Shown in pieces: positions 9,656-61,847 of a DNA stretch of 64,000 nt. Source of the DNA: a virus; IMG/VR virus record IMGVR_UViG_3300048672_000475, positions 1 to 64,000 of that record. The stretch is one strand, 5' to 3'. Under the pieces are notes generated by a model. That model saw nothing but the letters and a program-made list of their open reading frames with translations. It was not told the origin of the DNA and did not search any database. The translations under genes and the position numbers were made by a program. Numbering within the stretch: the first letter of the stretch is position 1; the number at the start of each line of letters is the position of its first letter.

Positions 9656-9658
9656 CAG

Positions 9659-22393: not shown

Positions 22394-22432
22394 TTTGTTT
22401 CCTCTTCGGTGATTGTTGATAGTTCGGAGCTG

Positions 22433-22461: not shown

Positions 22462-22464
22462 GTG

Positions 22465-26460: not shown

Positions 26461-26480
26461 TTCATTTCTCCAGTTAGTAT

Positions 26481-26600
26481 TGGTGCGCCTGCTGGGAATC
26501 GAACCCAGGTACTCGCCTGAAATAAGGAACCTATCCGCAATTTGCGGCTCCGAGTAGTTCTCTACTCACGTTTCGCGCTCTACCGTTGAGCTACAGGCGC
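26481..26600 (-). ncRNA. tRNA-like RNA with expanded, non-canonical anticodon domain
   Basis: GCGCCTG/CAGGCGC-A-CCA acceptor, GCTC-AACGGTA-GAGC D arm, CTGGG-TTCGATT-CCCAG T arm; 68 nt between D and T arms. Confidence 0.8.
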
Positions 26601-26601
26601 T

Positions 26602-26633
26602 ATAAAATACTCCCGACCCTAAAGCCGGGAGTA
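26602..26633 (-). terminator. Terminator-like hairpin after SSB gene
   Basis: TACTCCCGGC..GTCGGGAGTA-TTTTAT. Confidence 0.55.
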
Positions 26634-26642
26634 GCGTACCTA

Positions 26643-27203
26643 TTACAACAAATCGTCGTCGTCGAAATCCGATCCAAGATCGTCCAAGCCATCCGCAGTG
26701 GCTGGCGCCGCACCGCCGAAAGATTCTCCGTCTTTGACGAACTGGACGGTAACCAGTGTTGCTCGGATAGCGTTACCGTAGCTATTTGATTGCGCCCAGA
26801 TTTCAACAATACCGTTAACCCAAGCCCCGGAATAGATTTTTCCATCTTTAGCCGATAATGGGTTTCTGTTTCTGTCCACTACCATTGGTCGACCATCATC
26901 CTGATTACGTGTAGCCGTCAGCGCCCAATTACCGGCATAGCCGTTGTATGTACGGCGGTTACCGTCAATGAAGCAGCAGGCTTTTTTGTCGATGAGGATC
27001 TCAGGCAGCAATACGTCTGCCTTAGCGCCCCATTTAGCTTTCGCCACCTCTTTAATCGCGGCATCGATTTCCGCTTTGCAAGGGTTGTCTGGCGCGATCA
27101 GAAACGTTGATCTGTACTGGAACGGGCCTTGGTTTTTGTACTGGGTAGCTTCAAATACGTCTGGAAATGCCAAACGCGCATTTTTGATAATGATTCTTGC
27201 CAT
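26643..27203 (-). CDS. DUF2815-type ssDNA-binding protein
   Basis: RLAFPDVF, IYSGAWVN, VQFVKDGESFGG, acidic tail. Confidence 0.88.
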   Translation of the reverse strand: MARIIIKNARLAFPDVFEATQYKNQGPFQYRSTFLIAPDNPCKAEIDAAIKEVAKAKWGAKADVLLPEILIDKKACCFIDGNRRTYNGYAGNWALTATRNQDDGRPMVVDRNRNPLSAKDGKIYSGAWVNGIVEIWAQSNSYGNAIRATLVTVQFVKDGESFGGAAPATADGLDDLGSDFDDDDLL

Positions 27204-27215
27204 TTTATTTCTCCG

Positions 27216-28595: not shown

Positions 28596-29119
28596 AACTT
28601 GCCAGCCGCTTTCAGCAGTTTGCAGCCTTTTTCAAACAGTTCGTCCCATTGATCAGTCGGGATATCTGAGATTTTGTTACCCGCGCCCAATAACTCGACC
28701 ACTTGTTCGCGGCCCAGTTTAGACAGCACGGGCAGCAAATTGGCTTTTGCATACGCCGTATCGCGGGTACCGGCGGGCAACTTAGGCAAATCGTCTGCAG
28801 GTTCATCTTCGCCGCCCAGCAAATCATCATCGTCTTCGTCGACAGTCGAAGCCGCATCTTCGGCCAGAACTTCGGCCATAAGCTCCTTGTCGGTTTTTTC
28901 GGCTACCGGTTTTTCGGCTTTCGGTTCTGGCTTGGTTCGGACTTCCGTTTTCGCCTTGGCTTCTGGCTTAACTTCGGCTTTTGTTTCAGCTACTGCAGGG
29001 ACGGCTACCCCAGTAACGGCGGCAGCGGGATTCATCCCTCTTGCTACCAAAACGGCCAGCGAAGTGGCGATTGTTTGAAGGGCTTTGGTTTGGTCTTGTA
29101 TCGCTTGTTCTAAAGACAT
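28592..29119 (-). CDS. Hypothetical replication-module protein with low-complexity linker
   Basis: First gene of the leftward replication operon; AACTGGAG RBS. Confidence 0.7.
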   Translation of the reverse strand: MSLEQAIQDQTKALQTIATSLAVLVARGMNPAAAVTGVAVPAVAETKAEVKPEAKAKTEVRTKPEPKAEKPVAEKTDKELMAEVLAEDAASTVDEDDDDLLGGEDEPADDLPKLPAGTRDTAYAKANLLPVLSKLGREQVVELLGAGNKISDIPTDQWDELFEKGCKLLKAAGKL

Positions 29120-29181
29120 TTCTGTTCTCCAGTTGGTTGGTGTAAAAATAAAAAAGTGGGTATTCCCACTCGGCGTGAAGA

Positions 29182-29253
29182 TTTATACACGCTAAAAATC
29201 GGTGTGTCAAGTGATAATTTGTATTTGACTAGAGCGCAATATAGTGATAGCTT
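29182..29253. promoter_or_regulatory. Divergent sigma70 promoter pair
   Basis: Minus: TTGACA-17-TATAAA; plus: TTGACT-17-TAGCTT. Confidence 0.65.
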
Positions 29254-29286
29254 CTGCTCCATAATTCCATTCCTGAGGACACGACC

Positions 29287-29580
29287 TTGACAACTAAATA
29301 CGCGCCTATTACCGCTTTATCCAACTGGCTTGCCGTTGCTACCCCGCAAATGAAACAGAAACTAGCCACGCTTGCCGAATCCTCTGAGTGCATGTTTCGC
29401 CAATGGGTAGCGGGCCGAAGAGGCATGTCAGCCGAAAAAGCGGGGCTGGTCGCTGCCGCCACCAATGTTATAGAGGCCGAGTTTGATGCCGCACCTAAAG
29501 CCCTGAAGCGCGGCGAGCTGTGTGACGCATGCCGGAGCTGTGATTACTACAACCAGATTGAGAATTCCGACTTGCTGTAA
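29287..29580 (+). CDS. Cro-like HTH regulator with C-terminal Cys cluster
   Basis: KLATLAESSECMFRQWVAGRR helix-turn-helix; CDACRSC. Confidence 0.65.
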   Translation: MTTKYAPITALSNWLAVATPQMKQKLATLAESSECMFRQWVAGRRGMSAEKAGLVAAATNVIEAEFDAAPKALKRGELCDACRSCDYYNQIENSDLL

Positions 29581-29602
29581 CCGTTAGCTATTGTTGTATG
29601 GC

Positions 29603-29626
29603 TCCCGCGCATCGCGGGATTTTTTG
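29603..29626 (+). terminator. Terminator between HTH and primase genes
   Basis: TCCCGCG-CAT-CGCGGGA-TTTTTT. Confidence 0.65.
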
Positions 29627-29650
29627 TCGGCTCAATAATAAAGACATCAC

Positions 29651-32272
29651 ATGGCAGACTTAATACCTGATTTGGAGCAAGCAAGGCGCTTCCTCGAAAT
29701 CCTCGACCCCGGCGCAAATACGCGGTCATTACTGGAGGATAGGCCCGATGGCTTTACGTTCCAGACATTCGATGACTCCAAGGATCGCAAGGACCGTACT
29801 TTAGCGCGAATTCTTACCGGTACGCTGGATGCGCTATCCGATACGCTGGTTCAGTTTAACGACCGAGGGGCCGGCATCTTCGTTACCGTTAACGAAACCG
29901 ACGGGCGAGGTCGTAAATTGGCTAACCTGGAGCGCATACGTTGCTGTTGGGTCGAAGACGACGAGGGGCTGGGCATCGCTACGCCGGTCGAGCCTCATCT
30001 GGTTACCGAAACTAGCCCTGGAAAATACCATAAACTGTTTTTAGTTGATGGGCTGACCATAGAGCAGCACGCGCAAATTCAGGATGTTCTGGTAGCCGAG
30101 TACGGTAGTGACCCCAATGCTAAGGACGCGGTGCGCGTACTACGACCCGCAGGATTCTACCACCGAAAAGGCGAGCCTTTTATGGTGCGGATTATCCATG
30201 AGTCCGGTAAACCACCGTATACGGCGGATGACTTGCTGGAGGCGTTTAAGCCCAATCCCAACGCACCTCAGCGGGTATCGCCGGCCAAAAAGAAACGGGA
30301 TTCTTCCGCTATTACCCGCACTCAACCTTCCGATGATGGGTATATCCCGCTATCGGAAGCGGACGGCGCGCTGCCTCTACCCGATATTAACGAGGATAAC
30401 GCAGCCAAATACCTGCCTAAAGCGGGCGAGCAGTCATATTCCCAATGGCGGGATGTGGGCATGGCGCTGCACCACCAATTTGACGGATCTCTTGACGGGT
30501 TGCTGATATTTGACGAATGGTCGCAGAATGTTCGCAGTTACAAAGGGTTTGAGGACGTATCGAACGCATGGGATAATTTTGGCAAACGCACCGATGGCCC
30601 GCTGGTTACGTTTCGCTCTTTAGTCAAAGAGTACAACATCCGGAACCAAAAAGACCGATCCGCGCAGGCAAACGCCAACGTAACTAAGGCTGAAAAGCTA
30701 CTGAATAGCTGCACCGATTACAACATCCTGGTTACCGATATAGCCGCCAAACTGTGGCAGTTATCCCACGGCAACGTGTCGCTGGAAAAAGATTTTAAGG
30801 CTGCTTTGATCACAAAGTACGCAGAATTGCGTCCTGGGCACACGCTGACAGGCGCGGAGGCTTTGCGCGCTATGAAGTCCCGCAGGGCGGTCGCCGCAGC
30901 GCGTAGCGTAGACGAAATCGACGTTAATTATGCGGATGCACCAGAATGGTCAAAAAACTGGGTCTGGATTTCGGAAGAAGAGATATTTTTCAACGTAGAT
31001 ACACGGGGCAAGCTGACAAACTCCGGTTTCCGAGCGATGTTTGATTGCCGGCTTCCTGTTGGTGAGGGCATGCCCACCGATGCTGCGAGGTACGTGCGCA
31101 ACAACAACTATATCCCGAAAGTCATGCGCTCGATGTACGCGCCGAATTTGAATTCGCTGTTCGATTACCAAGGCGTATCCCACGTCAACACATACAGCCC
31201 CATAGGCCGAGCGGTAATACCCGAGGTCATCCAGCGACCGGATGCAGTAGCAACCTTCAAAAAGCATATCGAGCTGATATGCGGGGGTTGGAATCGGGAA
31301 GCCCAATTACTGTGCAATTACCTGACCGCCGTAACCGCCGAACGACCGTTGAAGGTACGGTGGGCGCCCTTGATTATCGGTGAATACGGCGACGGTAAAA
31401 GCTTACTTTCGACATTCATCAAAGCGGCGGTCGGCGCGGCGAACGCTAGGACCATCCATGGGCAGTCCATCATGGCTAGTTCGGCCTCCGGGCAAACAGG
31501 CTGGGCCGAGGGTACTGTATTCTGCACCATCGAAGAAGTTAAATTCCATGGGCATAACCGGCACGACGCGCTGAATCTTCTGAAGACCTACATCACAAAT
31601 GACGATGTGGGCGTTAAAAAGATGTACCAGGAGATTCAGTCCATACCGAACACGCAGAACTATATGCTGTATTCTAACTACAAGGACGCAGCCCCAATCG
31701 ATAAGGGCGACCGTCGGTATTACATTTTGTTTTCCAAGCTCGACCTGGACAAAATGAAAGAGGATAAAACCGACAATTCCTATTTCGACCGTTTAACGGA
31801 TGCCGCTAAAAACGACGCCGGCGACATTATGCTTTGGTTGCGTACAGTACCGGTGCATCCGGATTTCCATCCTAACGGCCACGCACCGATGACCGATGAT
31901 AAACAAACCGTTTTGCGGATCGTAAAAGACGACATGATCGAAGAGGTCCATGAGATGCTGGAGGATAGCAAAGAGCCGCTATATGGTTCTCAGGTTGTGT
32001 CCTTCACGCCGCTATTTAACGCCCTCATGGTGCGGTCAAATGGCGCGTTGAAACCAAACGAGAAGCATAAATTAACTCGGGCGCTACTGGAACTTGGGTT
32101 TACAAAACTTGACCGTTGCCGGTTGCCCATCAACTACGATGGTGATAACCGGCATGCCTTATGGGCAAAGGTCAAAGAGGTAGGCGAAAGCCTGGAAAAA
32201 GCTCGGGCTATTGTGATCGAGCGGCATAAACGAATCGAACATACCGGGTTAGGTATGGAAGATTTACTATAA
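29651..32272 (+). CDS. Primase-helicase (RepB-type primase, PriCT-2, SF3/DUF5906-like NTPase)
   Basis: FTFQTFDD, ETSPGKYH, RVLRPAGF; W..VGMALH..FDEWS; GEYGDGKS, IEE, DRRY. Confidence 0.88.
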   Translation: MADLIPDLEQARRFLEILDPGANTRSLLEDRPDGFTFQTFDDSKDRKDRTLARILTGTLDALSDTLVQFNDRGAGIFVTVNETDGRGRKLANLERIRCCWVEDDEGLGIATPVEPHLVTETSPGKYHKLFLVDGLTIEQHAQIQDVLVAEYGSDPNAKDAVRVLRPAGFYHRKGEPFMVRIIHESGKPPYTADDLLEAFKPNPNAPQRVSPAKKKRDSSAITRTQPSDDGYIPLSEADGALPLPDINEDNAAKYLPKAGEQSYSQWRDVGMALHHQFDGSLDGLLIFDEWSQNVRSYKGFEDVSNAWDNFGKRTDGPLVTFRSLVKEYNIRNQKDRSAQANANVTKAEKLLNSCTDYNILVTDIAAKLWQLSHGNVSLEKDFKAALITKYAELRPGHTLTGAEALRAMKSRRAVAAARSVDEIDVNYADAPEWSKNWVWISEEEIFFNVDTRGKLTNSGFRAMFDCRLPVGEGMPTDAARYVRNNNYIPKVMRSMYAPNLNSLFDYQGVSHVNTYSPIGRAVIPEVIQRPDAVATFKKHIELICGGWNREAQLLCNYLTAVTAERPLKVRWAPLIIGEYGDGKSLLSTFIKAAVGAANARTIHGQSIMASSASGQTGWAEGTVFCTIEEVKFHGHNRHDALNLLKTYITNDDVGVKKMYQEIQSIPNTQNYMLYSNYKDAAPIDKGDRRYYILFSKLDLDKMKEDKTDNSYFDRLTDAAKNDAGDIMLWLRTVPVHPDFHPNGHAPMTDDKQTVLRIVKDDMIEEVHEMLEDSKEPLYGSQVVSFTPLFNALMVRSNGALKPNEKHKLTRALLELGFTKLDRCRLPINYDGDNRHALWAKVKEVGESLEKARAIVIERHKRIEHTGLGMEDLL

Positions 32273-32295
32273 TTTTTAAACTGGAGATTTCCAAT

Positions 32296-32691
32296 ATGAG
32301 TATTTTTAAAGACCAAGCTGATTTTATGACCCTGGCCAACCAATCATTAGGTGTTGGTCGTACTAATCAAGCGGATATGTATGCCACGCTGATTGGCGAA
32401 GAAAGCCTGGAATTCGCTGAAACACAGTACCACGATTACGTAGGCCATCTTACGGATGATGTGAAAGAAGCCCTGGATAACATAGTCGTCGCTGCGGGTT
32501 TCTTGAACACCGTGCTCGGGCCTGATAAAGCGCAAATGGCTTGGAATCTGGTCCACGAAACCAATCTGGCAAAGCTGAAGGGTAGCGTCGAAAAACGCGA
32601 TGACGGCAAGGTGGTGGTGTCTAGGGAATGGAAAGAGGCGATGAAGAAAAAGCTGAAAGAAGATTTGCTGGCGCTGGAGAATGCCCCATGA
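32296..32691 (+). CDS. MazG/PRA-PH-like NTP pyrophosphohydrolase
   Basis: LIGEESLEF, EALD, VHETNLAK, RDDGKV. Confidence 0.75.
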   Translation: MSIFKDQADFMTLANQSLGVGRTNQADMYATLIGEESLEFAETQYHDYVGHLTDDVKEALDNIVVAAGFLNTVLGPDKAQMAWNLVHETNLAKLKGSVEKRDDGKVVVSREWKEAMKKKLKEDLLALENAP

Positions 32692-33074
32692 TCGTCGTCA
32701 CCGACATTCAATATTATGAAGTGATGGGTGACGAACACGCGATATATCGGGCTCCGGGTGGCCGCCCTTGCAGAACAAGAACCCCCGAGGGGTATTCTTG
32801 GAAACTACCTGAAGTAATCCGGGAGGATATTAAAGGGCGCCGCTTTATACGAGGGGATAAAGAGATAATCGTAGGCCTATCAGACGAAGTAGCTGATGTG
32901 TTCCATATGCAAAAAGCTGCATGGGATTATATGGAGTCAACCATAACTGGCCTTTCGCAATTGCAGGCTGGTACCGCGCATCGGTTATCCCTGGCAACGG
33001 ATAAGTTGGAGTCGCTCGGCTCCGCTTCCTGGCGACAGCGGTTAAAGTGGTTGTTTACAGGTATTCCTACCTAA
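32688..33074 (+). CDS. Hypothetical protein
   Basis: ATGA-coupled to the upstream gene. Confidence 0.6.
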   Translation: MIVVTDIQYYEVMGDEHAIYRAPGGRPCRTRTPEGYSWKLPEVIREDIKGRRFIRGDKEIIVGLSDEVADVFHMQKAAWDYMESTITGLSQLQAGTAHRLSLATDKLESLGSASWRQRLKWLFTGIPT

Positions 33075-33075
33075 C

Positions 33076-33107
33076 AAAAAAGAAGCCCTCGAAAGAGGGC
33101 TTTTTAT
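33076..33107. terminator. Bidirectional intrinsic terminator
   Basis: AAAAAAGAAGCCCTC-GAAA-GAGGGCTTTTTATT between convergent genes. Confidence 0.85.
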
Positions 33108-33319
33108 TACGCGTCTGAAAGGACAATATCAATTAGGAGGTCCAGGTACTTGATCTTTTCCTCCAGGAAATGTACTTCGGCTACATGTCGTTGGTAACTT
33201 GGACTCTCCTGGCAATGCTCGCACATCGAAAAAACGTCATGACTCATAAGTTCCGATAACTTTATCTCCGCTCTGAACTTGTGACTATACATTTCGGCTA
33301 TCAATCTTTTATTTACCAT

Positions 33320-34250
33320 CTAAAAATCCTCCTCTGTTAACACGTAGGGCTTGGTATCAATCACCTGATAAAAATCTATTTTAAGATACTTAGCGATCCA
33401 CGCTTCTAGCATGTCTTCGAGTTCTTTTTCGGCGGCAGCGTCGACATTATCCAACACAGACTCCGCATACTCACCGCCTAAATCCCAAGCCGCATTTTCA
33501 AATTGTTCTATTACCCATTCTACGTTAAACAAGTCCGAGGGTTTGTACTTACGATACCTCCCGACGTAAACCGTATCCCCCGCCGACAAATAATCGTTGT
33601 TGTTTAGGAGGTCGCTCAATTCAATGCAGTTGTAGTCATCATCGTTAGCAGACCAAGCCTCCAAAATTTCCGGTTCTTTTTTCCCGAAAATCCGGTCCCA
33701 GTTTTCCCTAAACTTCTGCCTGTCTGTAATCGGCCTAGGGTACGACCCCTTACCGCCTTGCCATTTACCGCTCATTTTGCGCCTCCAATTTCGCTAAAAG
33801 TATAATTTTCGTTTCGTGATACTCGCCGGAGTACAGGGGATATAGTTTGATGACTTCTATCTCATCAGGGCGTACCTCACCTCTTCTAGTCGCTAAAAAC
33901 TCTTCCTCAGTTAAAACGTAATCCAAATACTTCAGTTCGTACAGCTTCCTTAGCTGCCTAGCCGATATGTAGTGCGTCTGACCATCGTTTTTAGAGCGCA
34001 CGTAACCGGGGCATAAAACCCACAATAAGATCTTTTTCTTTTCGGGTCTGAAAGAGTTTTTAACAACTACGTTATGGAACGGCGTATCCTCGCCTTCTTG
34101 GACGTGGTTTACTTCTACACTTAGTATGCTATCCAGTATTTTAGGCCCCGGCTTCTTGCCGAAAATCCGGTCCCAGTTTTCCCCGAACTTCTGCCTGTCT
34201 GTAATCGGCCTAGGGTCCGATCCCTTACCGCCTTGCCATTTACCGCTCAT
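33320..34250 (-). CDS. Two genes (33320-33775, 33765-34250) sharing a 33-aa N-terminus
   Basis: MSGKWQGGKGS.PRPITDRQKF.ENWDRIFGKK in both. Confidence 0.75.
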
Positions 34251-34263
34251 TTTGTGCCTCCAG
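33684..34263. repeat. About 105-bp imperfect direct repeat (33684-33788, 34159-34263)
   Basis: Direct comparison of the two copies. Confidence 0.9.
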
Positions 34264-34419
34264 TTTTCGTTTTCTCGTTTGTTCGGCCTTGCGTTTTCTC
34301 GCGCAGCTATTGTGGTATTCTTTGTTCGGTACGGTAGTATACAGAGGTCGGCCACAGTACCTGCAAGGGTCTGCGCGGCGCCATGGCCGTAGCGTTAATA
34401 TGGCCTCCTGCGGTATCAC
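34240..34419 (-). CDS. 59-aa Zn-finger-like ORF missing from the ORF track
   Basis: GTG-coupled start; CRYC...HNSC; ends KLEAQNER. Confidence 0.55.
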   Translation of the reverse strand: MIPQEAILTLRPWRRADPCRYCGRPLYTTVPNKEYHNSCARKRKAEQTRKRKLEAQNER

Positions 34420-34789
34420 TGCCTAGCTCTCAAAAGAGTTATTACGGCGGCTAGCGCTTCTGCGTAGCCATGCTTGTATCCCTCGTCATACTGCGCAGTG
34501 TTTTTGCTAATCGCGGTATCGACGCCCCGTATCCGGTAGTCAAATGCCGGGTTCCACGATGGCGTCCCCGCTACCTCCAGCCACGGGTCATCGCCGTATT
34601 TAAACTCTAACGGAGGGCGACCACTGCGCTCCCAGTATAACTTCAGGGTGTCATGCTTGCTTTGCGTTGTGCGACTCATGTAGTACCTCTTATCAAATGC
34701 GTGCTGCCATGGTTTACTGTTTAAGTTGATTGGCGGGCAATAAATTTTGATTTGAACCTCCCCATGCCTGAAGGCAGGGGGATTCCTGA

Positions 34790-35842
34790 CTACGCCAGAC
34801 ATTGGCGTACCTCGTGGGCCGTTCCAGCCCCGGAAATTAGAGTGTTGATCGCTGCATTTACGTCGCGATCATGATGCGTTCCACACGCCGAACACTCCCA
34901 ATCCCTCACCGACAGTCCTGCTAATCCTGTAGGGCCTGTTAGGCTCCCGCAAGTTGAGCAAATCCTGGTGGAATTTTTGGAAGCAACCTCGACATATTGA
35001 GTACCGCCTGCACGGCTCTTGTACTCAAGCATTGACCGAAGTTGTGCGTGACCGCTTGAGGCCACGCTCTTCCCGAATTTCTTGGCAATCCCTTTGATAT
35101 TATCTTTGGAAAAATAGATAACGGTATTTTCCTGTACCAAACGTAATGACAACTTATGATTTCTGTCCTTGCGTTGGTTCCGAATGCGCTCATGCTGCCT
35201 TGCTACTAATTTCCTGTTAATGCCACGTTGCGCCTGAGCCAAGCGTTTTGCGGATTGATGCAATTCTTTTGGATGGTCAATCTTTTCGCCGTTTGAAGTC
35301 GTTAGCAAATCCTTGAAACCGGGATCAATGCCGATAACGCCCTCTGCCTTGCGCGCTATCGTCTTGCGCTCGGAATCAATAAACAGACACAAATACCAGC
35401 CGGATGCGCGCTTAACGATACGACCACATTTGATTTTGCCCACTGGAATATCTTGCTTATGGAACCGGACAGTTCCTATTCCAGGCAATTTGACATGATT
35501 GTTTTCCGGCGTACGGATAGGATCGGGAAACGGGATGCTGTTTAATTTGTTACGCATTCCTTTTAACTTAGGTTTGCCGCCAATCTTTTTAAAACAACGC
35601 TTCCACGCTATATAGGCAGTTGCCAACATGCCTTGTACGGTATGGCTTGGAATACCGATTTTCTTGCCATGATCCGCCAACAGGTTTTGAAAACCATTCG
35701 GTGTGTAATAGATACCACCTTTTGAGTCATTCTCTATTTTACGGATAGCCCAATTCCAGACGCCCGTAAGCATAAATAACCATACGTCCAACAATGAAGA
35801 CTGAACAACGTTGAGCCTAAGTTTTAATTGAGTCTGGATCAT
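34790..35842 (-). CDS. tnpB: TnpB RNA-guided nuclease homologue (catalytic Glu apparently absent)
   Basis: GIDPG, CSTCG/CSACG Zn finger, HDRDVNAAIN. Confidence 0.92.
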   Translation of the reverse strand: MIQTQLKLRLNVVQSSLLDVWLFMLTGVWNWAIRKIENDSKGGIYYTPNGFQNLLADHGKKIGIPSHTVQGMLATAYIAWKRCFKKIGGKPKLKGMRNKLNSIPFPDPIRTPENNHVKLPGIGTVRFHKQDIPVGKIKCGRIVKRASGWYLCLFIDSERKTIARKAEGVIGIDPGFKDLLTTSNGEKIDHPKELHQSAKRLAQAQRGINRKLVARQHERIRNQRKDRNHKLSLRLVQENTVIYFSKDNIKGIAKKFGKSVASSGHAQLRSMLEYKSRAGGTQYVEVASKNSTRICSTCGSLTGPTGLAGLSVRDWECSACGTHHDRDVNAAINTLISGAGTAHEVRQCLA

Positions 35843-35845
35843 CGG

Positions 35846-36253
35846 TTAAACCTGCTTTTGGTTCTCAATATACTGTTTAATTATTTCCAACGGCGCACCG
35901 CCCACGGTGGAAACAAAATAAGAATTAGTCCAAAGCGTCGGCAGCCTGGATTTAAGCTGTTTAAACTCAAGCCGTAAAACGCGCGATGTCCTACCCTTAA
36001 TGGTTTTAACCAGGCGATGAATGCCAAACTGTGGATCGACCTCAACCAACAAATGTACGTGATCCGGCATAACCTCTAACTCAATCATCTCTGATTTAAA
36101 CTCGATACATACGTCTTGTATAATTTCTTTAAGTCTGGTTTCTATAGTACCAATTAAAACTTTTCGTCGGTACTTGGGGCACCATACGACGTGGTACTTA
36201 CACGAATAAACCACATTGCTGTTTGACTTATATTTTATGCTAAAATTGCTCAT
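35846..36253 (-). CDS. tnpA: Y1 HUH transposase
   Basis: YHVVWCPKYRR, DHVHLL, LWTNSYF, YIENQ. Confidence 0.96.
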   Translation of the reverse strand: MSNFSIKYKSNSNVVYSCKYHVVWCPKYRRKVLIGTIETRLKEIIQDVCIEFKSEMIELEVMPDHVHLLVEVDPQFGIHRLVKTIKGRTSRVLRLEFKQLKSRLPTLWTNSYFVSTVGGAPLEIIKQYIENQKQV

Positions 36254-36857
36254 GTAATCAGTATACAGGTATTAGCTATATAGTCAATCAAAGATCAAAA
36301 TCGCGCGACTTGACCCCATATCTATAAGTTAGGGGGTTGCGCCGCGCTCTTGTTCAATATTCTTTCTAGTAGTTGTCGGCTCATCCTAGTTCTCCCGCTT
36401 TGCTTCACTATCCAACCCTAAAGCCCGTAGGTAACGTGAATACGCATCGAGCTTTGCCCTACATAACTGCATTTTCAGTTCTTCTACAATAAGCTGGCTC
36501 CTAGCGAGATCCGCGTAGGCGGCTAGCACTTCCGCGTTTATTTTTGCCTGGGCGGTCATTTGTTTTCTCCAGTTTTTCGTCAAAATACGGGCGCTCACGC
36601 TCCGTCGTTATCCTCGCCCTCATAGACGGCTTGGTACGCGGCTATAAATGGCGCCAGCGTCATTTTTGGTTGGTATTTGGTAGCCGGTGGCAACTTGGCT
36701 GCTGCCGGTGAAATCATATCCGCGAACCGTTTTAAGATTTCCCGATATTTTTCTATTTCATTCGCCATTGTCATCATCACCCCTACGACAAGCGTATAAA
36801 AAAGCGACTAACAGTAAGCCGCCCACTATTTGTAATGTGATAAACATATCCAGCCAT

Positions 36858-37088
36858 TCAGTTTCTACTAACATTGTATCGCTCCTCGATCACTTGGCAG
36901 TCTATACAGCGTACTACGCCGGTTATAGCCGCCCGCTTGTGGGGTATGTCGACACCGCAATCGATGCAGACTTTTTCGCCCTTATCGTTATACTCAGGGG
37001 CATGCTGCTCCCGGTGTACATGCTTGAGAATTGCGCGCGCTATGCTAGCAATCTCTAGGTCGGAGCTAAAATCTGCGTCGTCGGGCAT
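36858..37088 (-). CDS. TraR/DksA C4 zinc-finger protein
   Basis: N-terminal MPDDAD; CIDCG.DIP..R......RCIDCQ. Confidence 0.85.
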   Translation of the reverse strand: MPDDADFSSDLEIASIARAILKHVHREQHAPEYNDKGEKVCIDCGVDIPHKRAAITGVVRCIDCQVIEERYNVSRN

Positions 37089-37123
37089 CGGAGGTTTCCT
37101 CGGTATAAAAAGTTAAGTATCTA

Positions 37124-37489
37124 ATCGGCATTTTAGGGATTAGTCAAGTAATTACCACGGCCTGTTAGCTACAAATACGCGGTATTGCCCAGCGCACCCA
37201 TTTTGCGAAATTTCTCGTAGCTCACCCAGTTCCACCAGCCTATCTATACACGCTAGCATGTGCCAGCTATCGCCGGCTACGCCTCTTATAATCTCTTGCG
37301 CTCGCGCAGCCCCCGCTTCTGCTATTAAGGTTTTAGCCCTATCCCTAATAGCAAGAAACATTACTTGGCCCTGCTCGGTAAATACGATTTCTCTTTCGGT
37401 TTGGTAATCATACATAGCAATTCTCCACTATCAATTAGCCAAGTTGGCTGCCAAAATAATCCTGCATCGGCATTTTAGGGATTAGTCAA
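37124..37489. repeat. 24-bp perfect direct repeat flanking one gene
   Basis: ATCGGCATTTTAGGGATTAGTCAA at 37124 and 37466. Confidence 0.9.
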
Positions 37490-39052
37490 CAATATCTTGC
37501 GGTGCTTGTACAACGCAATTTTCCAGTCTGCGTTCGGCAGCGAACGTGAAATATTCTCTGTCCTCCCGTCTTCCGAATCTTCTCTCCAGGCTGCTCTGCC
37601 GCATGTCGGCTTCTTCTCGTAGGCATACCACATACCATCCTCATCCTGCGCCACCCAGTTGGTCCACTCAGGTAAATCGGATGGGTCGAAAGGCGCTGTG
37701 TGCGGGAAATACCGGGGGAACCGAGGGCCGTTAGAAGACTCGGTAACGTCCGATAGCGCTTGCGGGGTGCTCACCTCGTTTAGCCCTTGTAGCAAGAGAG
37801 TTATTTCGCCCTGCATGCCTTCTACGATGTCGCGAAGGCCTTGGTTCTCGGCCTGTATGCGCTCCAGCTTTTTGGCTTTATATTGGAGATCCGCAATCGC
37901 TGTTGTTGCATCCGCCATCCCCCTATCGAATCGCGAACCGTCGAACATAGGGTCCAGGTCGTCCATATCGTACCCATACTTGAGTATTTGCGTTGCCGCG
38001 TAGCCATAGCCGTTGTCGTATTCTTCTTTCGCGGCCTCATCCGCTTTGCTTTCCAGCCATTTTTCGATTCGTTTAAACATGTTCTATTCTCCAGTTTTAG
38101 GTATCGGCTCTTGACAGACAGGGCAATCGATAAACGCTACCCAGTCATCACCGTACAGCATAGCTTTCGTTTCATCTATGGAAGCTCCATCATCGACCCA
38201 GATATTTTTGGGGAAAATAAGCTTATCCTTATTAAGTACCGTTCCGCAGTTATCACAGCTAATTAAATTCATGTCGTTCTCCAGTTTGTTCTTGTCTACC
38301 CGCCTATATGAGTCGTGGGTTCACCGTTCGGATTTCTCGGCACGCTTCCAACCCACTCCGCACCGTCGTAGCAAACCGGAAAATACACGTAGTTTCGGGT
38401 CCACGCGGTAAACGGCCTACCTTCTTCGCTCCCATACCCACAATTAAATTCTTCTTCCAATTCATCCGCGTTAAGGGTTATGGATTCTACGTCCCCAAAA
38501 GTTTCGCCTCGTTCATCCAGTGCTTTGGTAATCGCTTTTGTCCAGTTAGTCATCATGATCTATTCTCCAGTTTGTTCTTGGTTATGGGTTACGGCGCGGT
38601 GAAACTTAGAACCGCCCGCCTGTGTAGAAGTGCGTCTTCCTTAGTGAGATGGATAAAGCCCATCGAGAGATATTTGTTGATGTGGTACCCTGGGTCCCAC
38701 CCCGTACGGGCGAAGAAGCTTATTACGTCCGACTCATTAGGCCCGTTAAAATTGGGAGCCCAATAGCATTCGCAGCGCGTAGGGTCTACTTGTCGAACCG
38801 GTTCAGGCACCTCAAAGTCGTTTATCAGAATTGTTTTTGGCTTTACCTGCAACGCATCAAAGGCTGGGACGCCGTTAGATTCAGTCCAGATAGACCCTTC
38901 ATAGTTACTGTTTCTATATTCAATTCTACCGTCTTTTAGCCTATATTCGTTCATGCTTCCGTTAGTGGTTGTTAGCGTTTCTCCAGCTAACAAGGCCTCA
39001 AACATTTCGGTATAGTCTCTCATTTCTATTCTCCAGTTTGTATTCAGTAGGC

Positions 39053-39082
39053 ACTATATCGTGTCATATGCTGTAGTGTCAA
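39053..39082 (-). promoter_or_regulatory. sigma70-type promoter
   Basis: TTGACA-18-TATAGT. Confidence 0.65.
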
Positions 39083-40626
39083 CCTAAAATAAGCCCGACC
39101 TCACAATGGCTTCTATCTGATCTAGCTGTAACGTCGGCATCACCAATCTTCGGCTGGGCCGACGCCAAAAATATTTGAGTTCCAGGGATCGTAAATCGCT
39201 ACCGGACATCTTAATAGCGTAATCTTTTACGCCTCTAACGCGAATTACATTTCCGCTTTTCATGTATATTTCCAGTTTCATAGTCCTACCTATACGTGTT
39301 GGCCAGCCATTCTATATTGGCAGGCTTTAATTTTTTGGGTGCCTTATGCGCCAAAGTTCCTTTCTGCCTCCTACAATCGCACGCTACGCAGCAGGGTTTA
39401 CCAGAAGGTGGCGTGTTCGGGCTTAGCAATTCGCCGCGCTTGTGCTGATTGCAATAGTAGCAATAGAAGTAGTGGTCGCTCATAGCGGCAACGACATTAG
39501 ACTTGCCACGATAATGATGGCCCATACCTGCCAAGTGTCGGGGCCGAACCCCATCTGCGCCAAGATAGCTCCGATGACTGCAGATGATAAAATGTTGAGC
39601 ATTAGCTTAAGCCTTTTCATTTTCAATTCTCCAGTTAATGGTTCCGGCTATCCGGACCTCGGCGAATAAATCCGAGGGCGTCTATTTGATCTTGGTCTTC
39701 GCCGGTACAAAATTCTTCGTACTGATCGCCGAACCAATACCAATACCAACGGCTTAAACGCTCTTTCAACCGCTTAATCATTTTCAATTCTCCAGTTATA
39801 TGTTCGCCAGATGGTCGGGTTACTCAGGTTTGAACCGCGCGTTGTAAACGCGGGTTGCGTTCTCGTATTCCGCGTCAAACTCGCTCTGCGCTTGCTTGGT
39901 AACGATATAGTTCTGCAACTGTGCCTCTGTCATGCGCTTGAACTGGTTGGTTTCAAAGATGTAATCCTCGTATCCGTCCCGGTACTGCGCGGCGAACTCT
40001 GGGGGAGATGGCGGGTTATACCGGGCGCCGGCTTTAGAGTCGGAATACCCATCATAGTAAAAACTGTTTTGTTGGTCCTGGTTCATCATTGTAGTACCTC
40101 GGTTGTAGGGTGGTGTGGGGTAGTAGGATGCGGCATATGAAATGCTATGACATCCATAATGTCTACCACTATATTTTTTACGACTATCGGATCTAAGTCC
40201 AGTGTCTCCAGTACTTTCTCGATGTCGTTTCTTAACTTTACGTTTACGGGCATTTTCTCTTCTCCAGTTTTAAATTAGCAGTCGCAATCCATGGTCGGGT
40301 TAGCCTAGTCCTTCCAGTGGGTCTAGCAAGGCGGATTGAATTTTCAAGGTTTACCCCCGTATGCCGCATCCACCGCTTGCATTAGCATAGCGACAAACTC
40401 ATCCACTTCTAATTTGAAATTATTAATTTCTATCACGTACGGCGGCAGATTTTCTTGCGGGATGCCTCGATACCGCTCTATATACCCTTTGGTAACCGAG
40501 TTCGGCGGAGTTATACCCTTATTCATCTGGTCTATAGTATGTAATCGCATTGCCACGATGCGTGTAAACTTCTCTGCTAATAGTCTTCTTGGTGACATGA
40601 TTTACTCCCCTGTTTCGAGGGTCGGG

Positions 40627-41463
40627 TTAGTCTAGCCCTTCCAGTGGGTCGGCGGTTTCTTTTTTACCAAACGCCATGGTCGTTTGGAACGTCGACTGCT
40701 TGGCCTCTTCCTGGGTCAACTCGCCCTCGTTAATGAAGTACGAGTGGACCAAATTGGAAATGATCCGGGCGCCGATGGTATTGTTTTCGTAGTTTTCGAC
40801 GATGTACTTGCCGATTACCGTGGTGCAGTCCTTCTTTTTGACCGCAGGAAATAACTTCAAGTAGTCATGCAACAGCGCGCTATCGTTCAGGATTTTAAGC
40901 AGTTCGTCAATGGTCAGCTTGCGCAAATTGAACACTAACCCTACTCGGCCCAAGAATTCCGTCTTAACACCGAAGTCGCGTAACCGGTCCAGGGTGATCG
41001 ACTGTTCACCGTTGAATGCGCCGGCAAATACGAACAATACATTGTCGACCGAGGCGTTAACATATTTGCCATAGTCGCCATACACCGAGGCTATGTTCGA
41101 CTCTAACACTTTCAGAAATTCGTTCTGCACACCGTTGGTTGTTTCATGGGCTAATTGGCTATTGCTGTTGCCTGATATAAAGAGCTTGTCAAACTCGTCG
41201 ACAAAGCATACGGTCATCCGGTTACCGCAAGTGATGAGTGGCGTTAACGCTTTGCTCAAGCTGTTGCCGCTGGTCCCTTCTTTGGTCAACTGCGCGGCGT
41301 TAACTTCCAGGTAGTTCAGATTCGCTTGGGCTGTGAGCTGCTGGATAGTGTAGCTCTTGCCCGCACCGCTGGCGCCAACGACGATAAAATGGGGTCGTAT
41401 TTTGGCCTTGCTCGTTTTGAAAATGTTGATAACTCGTTGGATCTTTTCGATTTCGGTTTGCAT
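40627..41463 (-). CDS. ClpX/HslU-like AAA+ ATPase
   Basis: GASGAGKS, FVDEFDKL, GVQNEFLKVLE, LFVFAGAF, EFLGR. Confidence 0.85.
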   Translation of the reverse strand: MQTEIEKIQRVINIFKTSKAKIRPHFIVVGASGAGKSYTIQQLTAQANLNYLEVNAAQLTKEGTSGNSLSKALTPLITCGNRMTVCFVDEFDKLFISGNSNSQLAHETTNGVQNEFLKVLESNIASVYGDYGKYVNASVDNVLFVFAGAFNGEQSITLDRLRDFGVKTEFLGRVGLVFNLRKLTIDELLKILNDSALLHDYLKLFPAVKKKDCTTVIGKYIVENYENNTIGARIISNLVHSYFINEGELTQEEAKQSTFQTTMAFGKKETADPLEGLD

Positions 41464-42191
41464 GTTTTGTTCTCCAGTTTTAAAGGTTCGCCCAGGTGGT
41501 CGGGTTAAGCTATCCGCTCAATGCGCAATAGCAATTGCGTTTTGTTAGCCGTTTCTACGGCCAGCACTATCCGGCAACTAAACTGCATGCCGGCCATTTT
41601 CTTGCCATACCGACAGTGGCAGGTTACGCGGCTGGCGCATCGCTTGGCAACGGATTCGTTAATCACTTCTTTGTATACCGCCTCGCCGGGTTGTAAGGCC
41701 GCTGCGAGGGTTAGAATGTTTTTGGTGTCGGTAATCATGGCTACTGTTCCCTGAATGTCATCGGAAATACTACAATGCTGCCTTTCTTTACGGCTTGCAT
41801 TGCAATACGGCCTTCCTGGTTGCGCCACATCGTTTCGCCTTTGTGGGTCAGTTTGACGTACAGCCATTGTCCGCCACAGTCTTTTTGTAATTGTTTGATT
41901 ACGCTCATTTCGGTTTGCATGTTTTGTTCTCCAGTTTTGAGCCTTTTAAAGCATCTCTGTTTCAATTTCTGTGTACATTTTTGATATTTCCACTTTTATG
42001 ACGCGGAAGCCTGTAAAACTTCGCCATTCTTCGGCTTCTTTTTTAGCGTATTTAATGTCTATATAGGGATTACCGTATCTTACGGAGCCGTCCAGTCCTA
42101 TAACATCTACTCTGTACAGAGTAGTTTCGTCGACCGCAAAAACACCGGCTTTTACCTTGTACTTAATGAGTTTGATTACACCGCTCATGAT

Positions 42192-42705
42192 CTATTCTCC
42201 AGTTTTGTTTATTGTTTCGGTGGTCGGGTTAGGTGGTAGCGGTATCCAGCCTTTTATGCTGTCGGTTACGGTCCAGTTTTCTGCGCAGTCTGTGTGCCAA
42301 GCCATTTTGCCCGTCTCGATATCTTTTGTCGCATACGCCACAAACCATTGGTCGTCATCCCACGCTAGTACGGGGGTGGAAGCCTCAGCGTCTAAATAAT
42401 AGTCCTGGTCTTCACTGAGCGGCGGCATTACGTCGGGTTTATTTAGGGTAGTCATATCGTGCCTCAATGGCTGGGTTAGGTGGTAGCGGTATCCAGCCTT
42501 TTATGCTGTCGGTTACTATCCACTTCTCCGAGCAGTTGGTATACCAATTCATTTTGACGGTTCCACAATCCCGCATGCAAAAAGCGACGTACCATTCCCC
42601 TCCCCAGGCTAATACCGGTACTGAGACTTCAGTACCAAACGCGTCTTGGTATTCGATAGGCGGCATTACATCGGGTTTATTTAGGGTAGTCATAGGGTGC
42701 TCCAA
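42192..42705 (-). CDS. Tandem paralogue pair (DUF551-like)
   Basis: Both MTTLNKPDVMPP...PVLAW...WxVTDSIKGWIPLPPNP. Confidence 0.7.
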
Positions 42706-53646: not shown

Positions 53647-53676
53647 TTGACACACCCAACAACATCAAACTACACT
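53647..53676 (+). promoter_or_regulatory. sigma70-type promoter
   Basis: TTGACA-18-TACACT. Confidence 0.7.
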
Positions 53677-53682
53677 ATAGAT

Positions 53683-53765
53683 ACCCGCTAGCGTCTGGTC
53701 ATGGACATAGTGGATAGCTCCGGCTAGGTTTCCTCCAGTTACCTACGCCGTGAGCGCCTTTATTA
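53683..53765 (+). ncRNA. Candidate sRNA with anti-Shine-Dalgarno loop
   Basis: Hairpin 53717-53755 with loop TTCCTCCAGTT, just downstream of the promoter. Confidence 0.55.
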
Positions 53766-54248
53766 CCCTCCGTAAGTCCCCAAGTCCACTCATCCGCACC
53801 TCCACCACCCAAGTCCACTCATTCCAGCCGCATACTATTATAGGGGCGCCGATTTGCGCGCCTGATTATTATCACGCTTCCCATCCAAAATCTTTTGTGG
53901 TATACAGGACGCATATACCAAGTAGGTTACTCGTATATCAATTTTTGGCATCAAGACGCGCCCGCTTGTGGAGTTAAATCAATTTAGGAGCAGGTATGGA
54001 GCGTATTGACATTAGGGCACCGGATGACTATATGGAGTTCGGTCGGGAAACCAGCGAGAGCACGAAAATGATCAACCGATTGGTGCTTGAGAAAGACCGC
54101 CTGATCCTGGAGATCCGTGTTGCGGGCATATTGAACCGCAGATTGCGGGACAAGATGGCCTTGTACCGGTCGTATAGCATGATAAGTTCTACGCTGTTGT
54201 TCTGTATGGCAGCGTTATTTTGGCTGCAGTACACGCATAGGTGATGAT

Positions 54249-61755: not shown

Positions 61756-61847
61756 ATAAATCCGGAGGACGCGCGACAAGGGCTTAGTACGGATGCGGGA
61801 CCGAACTTCCCGAAAGCTAAAAACGAAACACAAAACTGGAGAACAAA

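What the first reader, a model, noticed from the sequence alone, without database searches (positions are those of the whole stretch)
53647..53830. Candidate sRNA whose loop is antisense to the phage's dominant extended RBS
Seen: a TTGACA-18-TACACT promoter reads into a gap with no convincing gene, containing hairpin GCTCCGGCTAGGT-[TTCCTCCAGTT]-ACCTACGCCGTGAGC (13 bp, two single-base bulges). The loop's CTCCAGTT is the exact complement of AACTGGAG, which I count just upstream of about 26 start codons (minus: 6081, 6543, 8570, 9193, 11662, 17768, 20370, 26468, 29127, 34258, 36567, 38089, 38279, 38565, 39031, 39629, 39790, 40262, 41472, 41929, 42197, 47849; plus: 32279, 52141, 61834, 63736). I did not see it before the lysis or virion genes just downstream. 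Two more CCTCC motifs and a 15-bp repeat (53779, 53808) follow. Known: anti-SD loop sRNAs repress translation in trans. Inference: one RNA may silence a whole class of phage genes via a shared RBS barcode at the switch to late expression.
Basis: partly seen in the sequence, partly recalled or inferred. Interest (0 to 1): 0.85.

Follow-up and report, generated by a model that had tools for sequence, protein, structure and literature searches.

The report
Conserved phage RNA mirroring shared RBS
An uncultured freshwater phage and at least three relatives carry a small two-hairpin RNA gene whose unchanging loop is the exact complement of a private ribosome-binding tag placed before about 30 of the phage's own genes, so one RNA probably throttles their translation, although no transcript or repression has been observed.

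Summary
AACTGGAG occurs 33 times in the 80.9-kb genome. Twenty-seven copies lie 5-9 nt before an ATG. The only sense-strand copy of its complement is the 11-nt loop at 53730-53740.

In this genome alone that match is within chance. Relatives change the picture. Two IMG/VR phages (G001, G002) and two metagenome fragments (L027, L028) carry the same element:
- a TTGACA-18-TACACT/TAAAAT promoter where the 5' side is present;
- a first hairpin;
- a second hairpin whose inner stem differs through compensatory changes, while CUCCAGUU in the loop is identical in all five.

G001 and G002 also use the ACTGGAG box. The element is single-copy. It is an island of DNA conservation between unalignable flanks. 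In G002 a canonical terminator follows it directly. No Rfam family matches.

My best reading (about 0.5) is a discrete trans-acting RNA of about 80-190 nt that pairs with boxed ribosome sites and represses translation.

The "early-to-late switch" part is only partly supported. The box also precedes ligase, an HNH-like gene and small genes in the late region, and the o-spanin in relatives. Timing is unknown.

This scan's earlier AI notes describe similar anti-RBS hairpins in other phages. I did not check those notes.

The parts
53647..53676 (+). Sigma-70-type promoter of the RNA gene: TTGACA, 18 nt, TACACT. The predicted start is A53683.
   Evidence: The same TTGACA-18-TACACT sits at the same distance from the conserved ACCCGC 5' end in G001 and L028. 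G002 has TTGACA-18-TAAAAT.
53683..53768 (+). Conserved RNA core: 5' ACCCGC, stem-loop 1, GGAUAG linker, stem-loop 2 and a U-rich or C-rich tail.
   Evidence: The stretch folds at -32.1 kcal/mol, z = -2.9. Covariance model R1 scores it at 92 bits and finds one copy per genome. The consensus has 19 pairs, 6 with compensatory changes, 96.6% of cells paired, and 0 of 500 shuffles reach the observed values. blastn shows an island of conservation here: 53666-53762 against G001 and 53712-53764 against G002.
53685..53713 (+). Stem-loop 1: CCGCUA (53685-53690) pairs with UAGUGG (53708-53713).
   Evidence: Relatives read CCGCAG(A)...(U)CUGCGG. Pairs 7-27 and 8-26 are changed on both sides, and a G.U pair in G000 fixes the strand.
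53717..53755 (+). Stem-loop 2: an invariant outer stem GCUCCGGC/GCCGUGAGC with a bulged U, and a variable inner stem (UAGGU/ACCUA here).
   Evidence: The inner stem reads GCAG/UUGC in G001, AAUAAU/GUUAUU in L028, ACGG/CCGU in L027 and GCGGC/CCCUC in G002. Four pairs are changed on both sides. The invariance of the outer stem was partly imposed by my search pattern.
53730..53740 (+). Apical loop UUCCUCCAGUU. Positions 53733-53740 (CUCCAGUU) are the complement of the AACUGGAG box.
   Evidence: The loop is unpaired in the ensemble. CTCCAGTT is identical in 5 of 5 instances, although the collection scans did not constrain the loop. L027 reads UUACUCCAGUU, so CCUCC is not invariant but CUCCAGUU is. 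The duplex with the box consensus is -12.3 kcal/mol.
53757..53836 (+). C-rich, G-poor, largely unpaired tail (37 C, 7 G). It holds two CCUCC motifs and the 15-bp repeat at 53779 and 53808. It is a candidate Rho-loading (rut-like) region or an extra anti-SD stretch.
   Evidence: This is the most extreme C>G 80-nt window on either strand of the genome. It is mostly unpaired in the fold. The sequence is not conserved, but C-rich, G-poor tails follow SL2 in G001, L027 and L028. G002 has an intrinsic terminator at that place instead.
53843..53872 (+). GC-rich hairpin GGGGCGCC..GCGCGCC followed by UGAUUAUUAU. It is a weak terminator-like site and a possible 3' end of a longer form of about 190 nt.
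   Evidence: It is not conserved in the relatives.
53896..53908 (+). Single-copy conserved motif TGTGGTATACAGG (family consensus TGTGnTATAyAGG). It is a candidate late promoter with an extended -10-like shape and no -35. It is separate from the RNA gene.
   Evidence: There is one sense-strand copy each in G000, G001, G002 and L027. It lies downstream of the RNA gene and upstream of late genes. The promoter function is inferred.
5863..42204 (-). Leftward gene block holding 20 of the 26 exact AACTGGAG-before-ATG sites in the window. These are the presumed targets. My rough gene call counts 22 of 77 TIRs in 5.3-43.1 kb that carry ACTGGAG. Consensus aAACTGGAGAA, then 5-9 nt, then ATG.
   Evidence: The block includes exonuclease, polymerase and helicase genes.
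61834..61841 (+). Example of a boxed RBS inside the late region, before the NAD-dependent ligase. The box at 63736 precedes the HNH-like gene.
   Evidence: The orthologous ligase and HNH-like genes keep the box in G001 and G002.

Best explanation
Positions 53647 to about 53768 (possibly to about 53872) are the gene of a small non-coding RNA.

Anatomy. The host sigma-70 RNA polymerase would start at about A53683. The RNA forms two hairpins. The second hairpin presents an unpaired 11-nt loop, UUCCUCCAGUU. The RNA would end either at SL2 with its U-rich tail, by Rho on the C-rich tail, or at the weak hairpin at 53843-53872. In relative G002 it ends at a canonical terminator.

Proposed mechanism. 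The loop base-pairs in trans with the box AACUGGAG(A/G)A. This box overlaps the Shine-Dalgarno GGAG of about 30 phage genes. Most are replication and accessory genes of the leftward arm, and a few lie inside the late region. Pairing would occlude 30S binding and so lower their translation. Loss of translation in polycistronic messages could add Rho polarity and mRNA decay.

Shown:
- the sequence facts;
- the conserved promoter, structure and loop;
- co-occurrence with the box in relatives;
- that the element is single-copy;
- that pairing with boxed sites is thermodynamically selective.

Inferred:
- that the RNA is made;
- that pairing occurs;
- that the effect is repression;
- any timing.
For: (1) Box. 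There are 33 copies, 27 of them 5-9 nt before an ATG, against about 2.5 expected. The AACU part cannot pair with the CCUCC core of 16S rRNA, so something else selects for it (inference).

(2) Five instances share the element:
- the promoter and the ACCCGC 5' end are conserved where the 5' side is present;
- all five fold the same way, with z from -2.8 to -5.75;
- 6 of 19 pairs have compensatory changes, 96.6% of cells are paired, 0 of 500 shuffles reach the observed values, and the slid controls are far lower;
- G.U pairs place the structure on the sense strand.

(3) Loop. CUCCAGUU is invariant in 5 of 5 instances. The scans of IMG/VR, JGI metagenomes and GTDB genomes left the loop free.

(4) The RNA gene is a DNA-conservation island. 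The flanking genes are singletons among 5.8 billion proteins.

(5) G001 and G002 use the same box: 8 and 9 copies on the gene strand, none in the controls. Orthologous genes keep it.

(6) G002 has a canonical terminator immediately after SL2, as expected for a discrete RNA.

(7) There is one copy per genome.

(8) The loop-box duplex is -12.3 to -14.5 kcal/mol, against about -5 to -8 for other RBS classes. Boxed TIRs average -12.5, others -7.0.

(9) A random 11-nt loop contains a given 8-mer with probability about 6e-5. Even granting CUCC as a generic anti-SD core, the adjacent AGUU has probability about 4e-3 (own arithmetic).
Against: - No RNA data of any kind exist, and the host is unknown.
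- Loop and box are both invariant, so there is co-conservation but no co-variation.
- G001 and G002 first caught my eye through their CTGGAG copies, which is an ascertainment bias. It is mitigated by the loop-free scans.
- The outer-stem invariance was imposed by the search pattern.
- There are only five sequences.
- In G001 and L028 no terminator separates the RNA from a conserved small ORF about 55 nt downstream. There the RNA may be a 5' UTR.
- The 3' end in this genome is ill defined, with only weak terminators.
- A constitutive-looking promoter does not by itself give a late switch.
- The box also precedes late-region genes, including the o-spanin in relatives.
- One promoter would have to titrate about 30 messages.
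- About a dozen unboxed TIRs with GGAGGA reach similar duplex energies.
Confidence: 0.5

Rival explanations
1. The loop and the box do pair, but the result is not simple repression of an early class. Possible outcomes:
- protection or processing of boxed messages;
- a buffer that caps the translation of accessory genes throughout infection;
- the reverse logic, in which abundant boxed mRNAs bind the nascent RNA and change what happens downstream, such as termination before the late promoter or late genes.
For: The same conservation and complementarity evidence applies. The box is not restricted to early genes. The RNA gene always sits at the boundary before the late genes and the TGTGnTATAyAGG motif. 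In G001 and L028 the RNA is continuous with a downstream ORF.
Against: Pairing that covers the Shine-Dalgarno sequence normally blocks initiation (established knowledge of sRNA action, for example as summarised in PMC4615179). G002 insulates the RNA from downstream DNA with a strong terminator. No feature here points specifically to activation or processing.
Confidence: 0.17
2. The element is a cis-acting leader RNA of the late or lysis transcription unit. It would be an attenuator or antitermination site of the lambda nut/boxB, HK022 put or lambda PR'-6S-tR' kind. A protein or RNA polymerase would recognise the loop. Its match to the box would be coincidence, helped by the loop being a generic anti-SD-like sequence.
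For: - The order is promoter, two hairpins, terminator or C-rich rut-like tail, then lysis and late genes. The lysis and late genes are spanins, lysozyme, tail fibre-like proteins and terminase.
- The C>G window at 53757-53836 is the most extreme in the genome.
- A small basic zinc-ribbon protein family is encoded just upstream in G000. It also lies upstream of the RNA gene in G001 and G002, at 1.2 kb and 3.8 kb.
Against: - There is a single copy per genome, unlike nutL/nutR or putL/putR.
- No Q-family protein was found.
- A separate conserved promoter-like motif lies between the element and the late genes.
- In G001 that motif is 2.7 kb downstream, with genes in between.
- Chance complementarity of a conserved loop to the dominant 8-mer has probability about 6e-5 to 4e-3.
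- L027 keeps CUCCAGUU but not CCUCC, so the conserved part is the box complement rather than the generic anti-SD.
Confidence: 0.2
3. The element is not an RNA regulator. It would be a DNA or single-stranded-DNA structure, such as a replication or recombination signal. Alternatively it would be a plain terminator of the upstream operon, and its match to the box would mean nothing.
For: SL2 is followed by a U-rich stretch in G000 and L027. Within G000 alone the anti-box is at chance level.
Against: - A conserved promoter sits directly upstream of the hairpins rather than downstream of them.
- The 11-nt loop is invariant and two bulges are kept, which is not expected of a plain terminator.
- G002 has its own canonical terminator after SL2.
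- The DNA conservation here exceeds that of the neighbouring genes.
Confidence: 0.06

Closest known systems
Cuckoo RNAs (CcsR1-4, RSs0680, alpha-r14) of Alphaproteobacteria
   Same: Both are hairpin modules with a conserved C-rich, anti-SD-like loop and stems that vary through compensatory mutations. Both are proposed to repress by occluding ribosome binding sites (PMC4615179).
   Different: - Cuckoo loops read CCUCCUCCC and recur on 2-4 hairpins of a bacterial sRNA. Here a single hairpin carries UUCCUCCAGUU.
- The conserved part here is CUCCAGUU, which extends 4 nt beyond the generic anti-SD into a phage-private tag.
- The gene here is phage-borne.
- No Rfam model matched.
c4 antisense RNA of phages P1 and P7 (Rfam C4, RF01695), and by my own recall the CI RNA of P4
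   Same: Both are phage-encoded small structured RNAs whose loops pair with complementary sites around a ribosome binding site and block translation (PMC12197685).
   Different: - c4 acts on one operon (ant), on sites in its own transcript, as an immunity factor. The present RNA would act on about 30 dispersed sites that share a tag.
- There is no sequence or structure match to RF01695.
- No sign of lysogeny was found. Integrase PF00589 is absent.
C-rich-loop sRNAs of Firmicutes, such as S. aureus RNAIII hairpins and RsaE
   Same: Unpaired C-rich loops pair with the SD regions of several mRNAs. RNAIII is mentioned in PMC4615179. The rest is from my own knowledge.
   Different: - Those are host-encoded and target generic G-rich SD sequences.
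- Here the specificity comes from AGUU pairing with AACU upstream of the SD, a tag confined to this phage group.
T4 RegB endoribonuclease, which acts on GGAG in early-gene Shine-Dalgarno sequences (my own knowledge)
   Same: A phage marks many early or middle genes with a shared RBS sequence, so that one factor can inactivate them together.
   Different: RegB is a protein nuclease. No RegB homologue is present here (PF10715). The candidate factor here is an RNA.
Lambda PR'-6S RNA-tR' late leader, and HK022 put RNAs (my own knowledge)
   Same: A constitutive-looking promoter, a short structured RNA and a terminator lie directly upstream of the lysis and late genes. put RNAs also form two hairpins.
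   Different: - No Q family was found.
- There is one copy only.
- A separate conserved promoter-like motif lies downstream.
- The sequence-invariant loop matching the RBS box has no counterpart in those systems.

Membership tests
Trans-acting base-pairing sRNA with an anti-SD-type loop (generic kind) | Own promoter and a defined 5' end | tested here: met
   TTGACA-18-TACACT/TAAAAT lies at a fixed distance from the conserved ACCCGC in G000, G001, G002 and L028. This is in silico only.
Trans-acting base-pairing sRNA with an anti-SD-type loop (generic kind) | Own terminator giving a discrete short RNA | tested here: inconclusive
   There is a canonical terminator in G002. G000 and L027 have only a weak U-rich tail after SL2. 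G001 and L028 have no terminator before a small ORF.
Trans-acting base-pairing sRNA with an anti-SD-type loop (generic kind) | Conserved unpaired seed presented by a structure that is kept through covariation | tested here: met
Trans-acting base-pairing sRNA with an anti-SD-type loop (generic kind) | Complementarity to the translation initiation regions of several targets | tested here: met
   There is an exact 8-nt complement to 27 sites lying 5-9 nt before an ATG.
Trans-acting base-pairing sRNA with an anti-SD-type loop (generic kind) | The transcript exists and represses its targets | not testable with these tools
   No RNA run holds the stretch. The host is unknown.
Rfam C4 antisense RNA (RF01695) | Match to the family covariance model | tested here: not met
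   cmscan at E up to 10 on 52500-55000 and at E up to 1 on L023, L027 and L028 gave no C4 match.
Cuckoo, CcsR, alpha-r14 RNAs | Two to four adjacent hairpins, each with the loop motif CCUCCUCCC | tested here: not met
   Only SL2 carries an anti-SD-like loop, and it reads UUCCUCCAGUU. No Rfam match was found. The family definition is from PMC4615179.
Lambda-type Q antitermination leader (PR'-qut-6S-tR') | A Q antiterminator gene directly upstream | tested here: not met
   PF06530 and PF03589 are absent from the genome. The upstream proteins have no family above the cut-off. Q families outside these two models were not tested.
Lambda-type Q antitermination leader (PR'-qut-6S-tR') | A promoter, a short RNA and a terminator immediately upstream of the lysis and late genes | tested here: met
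   The gene order is shown.
HK022 put or lambda nut type cis-acting sites | Paired sites, one behind each early promoter (L and R) | tested here: not met
   Covariance model R1 finds exactly one copy in each of G000, G001 and G002.
Rho-dependent terminator (rut site) | An unstructured stretch of about 80 nt that is C-rich and G-poor, on an untranslated RNA | tested here: met
   53757-53836 has 37 C and 7 G, the most extreme window in the genome, and is mostly unpaired. This rests on composition only. Rho action was not tested.

The most novel reading that the evidence does not exclude
This is one member of an undescribed class of phage regulators. In this class a phage tags a subset of its own ribosome-binding sites with a private extension of the Shine-Dalgarno sequence, and encodes one small RNA whose loop reads that tag. 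A single RNA of about 80 nt would then control the translation of about 30 dispersed genes as a regulon. It might also use Rho polarity, and its position directly before the late promoter might help time the programme.
Probability: 0.45. Interest if true: 0.85.

Novelty: new variant of a known kind. Interest (0 to 1): 0.75.

Why it matters
Temporal control in tailed phages is usually explained by promoters, sigma factors, antiterminators and a few protein factors such as RegA and RegB.

A phage RNA that recognises a private tag in the ribosome-binding sites of many of its own genes would add a post-transcriptional layer of global control. It would also explain why the AACU next to GGAG is kept in dozens of genes across diverged genomes.

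The system would be simple and portable, with an 8-nt tag and a one-hairpin reader. It can be tested directly with reporters and compensatory mutations.

Earlier AI notes from this scan describe analogous loop-and-tag pairs in other uncultured phages. I did not check them. If they hold up, the principle may be widespread.

Tried and rejected
Searches for relatives that found nothing:
- blastn of 53300-54300 and of the RNA alone against 50,697 phage records gave no match.
- The G001 RNA gave a 25-nt match (E 0.7) upstream of a retron-type reverse transcriptase in Shewanella phage vB_Sb_QDWS. It lacks the loop and does not fit model R1, so I treat it as chance.
- The flanking proteins 53371-53640 and 53996-54244 are singletons among 5.8 billion proteins.
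- IMG/VR scans with the 89-aa and 567-aa proteins found nothing.
- TerL relatives at 34-41% identity do not use the box.
- A 17-mer loop pattern gave only chance hits.
- Of the 15 hits to the loop-free pattern in metagenomes and GTDB genomes, 12 are GC-rich chance matches and one duplicates G002.
- An SL1-based pattern added only a chance hit. A loop-based pattern added nothing new.

Family and motif checks:
- Rfam gave only sub-threshold hits: H19_3, mir-2068 and anti-hemB at 20 bits against a cut-off of 49.5.
- No tRNA or tmRNA was found.
- CACTATAG after the -10 resembles single-subunit RNA polymerase promoters, but it occurs once in the genome, so I rejected that idea.
- The hairpin, the 15-bp repeat and the promoter have no second copy in the genome.
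- No convincing minus-strand ORF follows the AACTGGAGG on the opposite strand, in G000 or in relatives.
- Integrase, two Q families and RegB are absent.
- The zinc-ribbon protein 53118-53381 has about 100 homologue clusters but no known function.

Tools and data not available:
Contexts came from the search for related loci instead.
- No RNA holder was listed among public runs. The one DNA run is the probable source sample.
- Full-text searches for the 8-mer and for anti-SD phage sRNAs found no description of this element.

Full report
**What the window is.** The window is the first 64 kb of an 80,856-bp IMG/VR virus record, classed as linear and 88% complete. Only one public run holds the stretch, a freshwater metagenome DNA run that is probably the source sample.

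Genes from about 5.3 to 49.2 kb run leftward. They include helicase, split DNA polymerase, exonuclease and primase genes. From about 49.9 kb genes run rightward, in this order:
- small regulators, including a Rha-like protein;
- the 355-nt gap at 53641-53995;
- small membrane proteins;
- an i-spanin with an embedded lipoprotein o-spanin (54481-54969 and 54686-54901);
- a lysozyme (PF00959);
- tail-fibre-like proteins, the small terminase, NAD ligase, an HNH-like protein, the large terminase and the major head protein.

The gap therefore lies at the boundary between the rightward early genes and the lysis and late genes.

**Checking the observation.** The promoter, hairpin, loop, CCTCC motifs and 15-bp repeat are all as described.
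- AACTGGAG occurs 29 times in the window and 33 times in the genome.
- Twenty-seven copies lie 5-9 nt before an ATG, with consensus aAACTGGAGAA. About 2.5 copies are expected by chance.
- The AACU part cannot be explained by pairing with the CCUCC core of 16S rRNA.
- The box is also used before the ligase, the HNH-like gene and three small genes in the late region.
- In a rough gene call, boxed sites are 22 of 77 in the distal leftward block and 1 of 19 in the promoter-proximal block, which uses ACCGAAGAGG instead. They are 5 of 47 downstream of the gap.

**Is the anti-box more than chance?** In this genome alone it is not.
- The sense strand holds one CTCCAGTT against about 1.2 expected.
- Markov resampling gives about 0.009 for a copy in this gap, and a few per cent for a copy in any intergenic stretch.
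- On this basis I began with a cis-leader reading.

**Relatives.** The direct routes failed. DNA searches found nothing. The flanking proteins are singletons. IMG/VR scans with nearby proteins found nothing.

The zinc-ribbon protein at 53118-53381 does have about 100 homologue clusters. An alignment of them (A1) retrieved six IMG/VR loci.

Two of the records behind those loci are G001 (30 kb) and G002 (50 kb).
- They share 65-78% DNA identity with this phage across the structural genes.
- They use the same ACTGGAGA box, with 8 and 9 copies on the gene strand and none in the controls.
- Orthologous ligase and HNH-like genes keep the box, and in both records the o-spanin is boxed.

Listing their CTGGAG copies showed one antisense copy in each record, with the same flanks as ours.

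Reading those places showed the whole element conserved:
- TTGACA-18-TACACT (TAAAAT in G002);
- ACCCGC at the predicted 5' end;
- a first hairpin;
- the GGAUAG linker;
- GCUCCGGC, five variable bases, UUCCUCCAGUU, five to six variable bases, then GCCGUGAGCG.

A pattern that fixes only the outer stem and leaves the loop free was run over three collections.
- IMG/VR returned the same two records.
- JGI metagenomes added two further fragments, L027 and L028.
- GTDB genomes returned only chance hits.
- All other hits are GC-rich coding sequence without the loop.

**Structure and selection.**
- All five sequences fold into the same two hairpins, with z-scores from -2.8 to -5.75.
- The inner stem of SL2 reads UAGGU/ACCUA, GCAG/UUGC, GCGGC/CCCUC, ACGG/CCGU and AAUAAU/GUUAUU. 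SL1 changes UA to AG with the matching change on the other side.
- Six of 19 pairs carry compensatory changes and 96.6% of cells pair. No shuffle of 500 reaches the observed values, and the slid controls collapse.
- G.U pairs place the structure on the sense strand.
- The loop 8-mer CUCCAGUU is identical in all five. L027 reads UUACUCCAGUU, so the generic anti-SD CCUCC is not what is conserved. The complement of the box is.
- Model R1 finds one copy per genome.
- The RNA gene is an island of DNA conservation between unalignable flanks. It is 73-85% identical between G000 and the relatives, and 91% identical between G001 and G002.
- No Rfam family matches.

**What follows the RNA.**
- In G002 a canonical terminator follows SL2 after 13 nt: a GCCCUCU stem, a UAUUC loop, AGAGGGC and a U-run.
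- In G000, G001, L027 and L028 the tail is C-rich and G-poor.
- In G000 that tail is the most extreme C>G window of the whole genome. It is followed by a weak hairpin with a U-rich stretch.
- In G001 and L028 a conserved small ORF starts about 55 nt after SL2.
- Further downstream a single-copy motif, TGTGnTATAyAGG, is conserved in G000 (53896), G002 and L027. In G001 it lies 2.7 kb further on. I take it to be a candidate late promoter, which would make the RNA gene a separate unit. That is inference.

**Weighing the readings.** Conservation shows that the hairpin and its loop are functional. A functional 11-nt loop would contain the dominant 8-nt RBS tag by chance with probability of order 1e-4. 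Even allowing a generic anti-SD core, the figure is about 4e-3.

The loop-box duplex is -12.3 to -14.5 kcal/mol, against about -5 to -8 for the other RBS classes. Some GGAGGA sites score similarly to boxed sites.

I therefore put about two thirds on real loop-box pairing. I put about 0.5 on the specific reading that a trans-acting RNA represses boxed genes.

The cis-leader rival keeps about 0.2.
- For it: the layout resembles lambda PR'-6S-tR', and the tail looks like a rut site.
- Against it: there is a single copy, no Q family was found, there is a separate downstream promoter-like motif, and it would need the complementarity to be a coincidence.

The promoter looks constitutive, and the box is not confined to early genes.

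**Comparison with known systems.** The element works like the anti-SD-loop sRNAs. These include the cuckoo/CcsR family, which has conserved loops and stems that co-vary (PMC4615179), and staphylococcal RNAIII and RsaE. It also works like the P1/P7 c4 RNA, whose loops pair around a ribosome site (PMC12197685). It is not a member of any of them by sequence or model.

A 2025 review of phage sRNAs lists no RNA aimed at a tag shared by many phage genes. Full-text searches found no description of this element.

Earlier AI notes of this scan report similar loop-and-tag pairs in other uncultured phages, some with co-variation. I did not test them and do not count them as evidence.

**Limits.**
- There are only five sequences, all from metagenomes.
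- There is no expression data and the host is unknown.
- The outer stem was fixed by the search pattern.
- G001 and G002 were first noticed through their CTGGAG copies.

Noticed in passing
window 50754-50859: An array of about ten tandem 11-bp units (consensus CCCCGATTAGC) that looks like iterons. A TTGACACACC promoter-like start at 50741 lies just before it. It may be a replication origin or a regulator-binding array.
   Followed up: partly
window 50637-50746 (also G001 about 28467-28627 and G002 about 49067-49176): A second non-coding island, conserved at 82-90% identity in G001 and G002. It contains GGTGTCGAGCAGCTTCATACCCCACGC and an A/T-rich stretch ending in AGTAGCAATTGACAC. That A/T-rich stretch is triplicated in G001. 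It is probably a promoter or regulatory region.
   Followed up: partly
window 53896-53908: TGTGGTATACAGG is a single-copy motif (TGTGnTATAyAGG) conserved in G001, G002 and L027, upstream of late genes. It is a candidate late promoter without a -35 element.
   Followed up: partly
window 53118-53381: An 87-aa Cys4 zinc-ribbon protein (MAKCDLCG...CPxC..WANKTK) with a basic tail. It belongs to a family of about 100 clusters of roughly 80-aa proteins of unknown function, found in diverse phage contigs.
   Followed up: partly
window 43137-49066, minus strand: A second stereotyped RBS class, ACCGAAGAGG 6-10 nt before the start codon, is used by 11 promoter-proximal leftward genes. No complement to it was found on a sense strand.
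   Followed up: partly
window 41450-41479 and 41907-41936, minus strand: Two genes share an identical 31-nt stretch covering the box, the spacer and the first codons (AAACTGGAGAACAAAACATGCAAACCGAAAT). This suggests duplication or cassette recombination at boxed junctions.
   Followed up: no
window 54481-54969 and 54686-54901: An i-spanin-like gene with an embedded lipoprotein (lipobox LILTGC) in another frame, arranged like Rz and Rz1. The likely o-spanin start has a GTTGGAG variant of the box. In G001 and G002 the box is exact.
   Followed up: partly
window 51267-51295, 51320-51347, 52096-52124, 63691-63719, and 49303-49274 (minus strand): Strong sigma-70-type promoters (10-12 of 12 matches) lie in intergenic positions. 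One is directly before the boxed HNH-like gene inside the late region. The phage appears to rely on the host polymerase for many units.
   Followed up: partly
G002 record about 43400-43500, upstream of its RNA promoter: Three copies of an inverted repeat of the form GGCA(C/G)ATTTGCC, flanked by TGATAAC and GATATTA. They may be operators or small hairpins.
   Followed up: no
window 60432-60457: A canonical intrinsic terminator (GAATGCCGGAAACATATCCGGCATTT followed by a T-run) after the tail-fibre-like genes. It probably ends the lysis and tail-fibre transcription unit.
   Followed up: no
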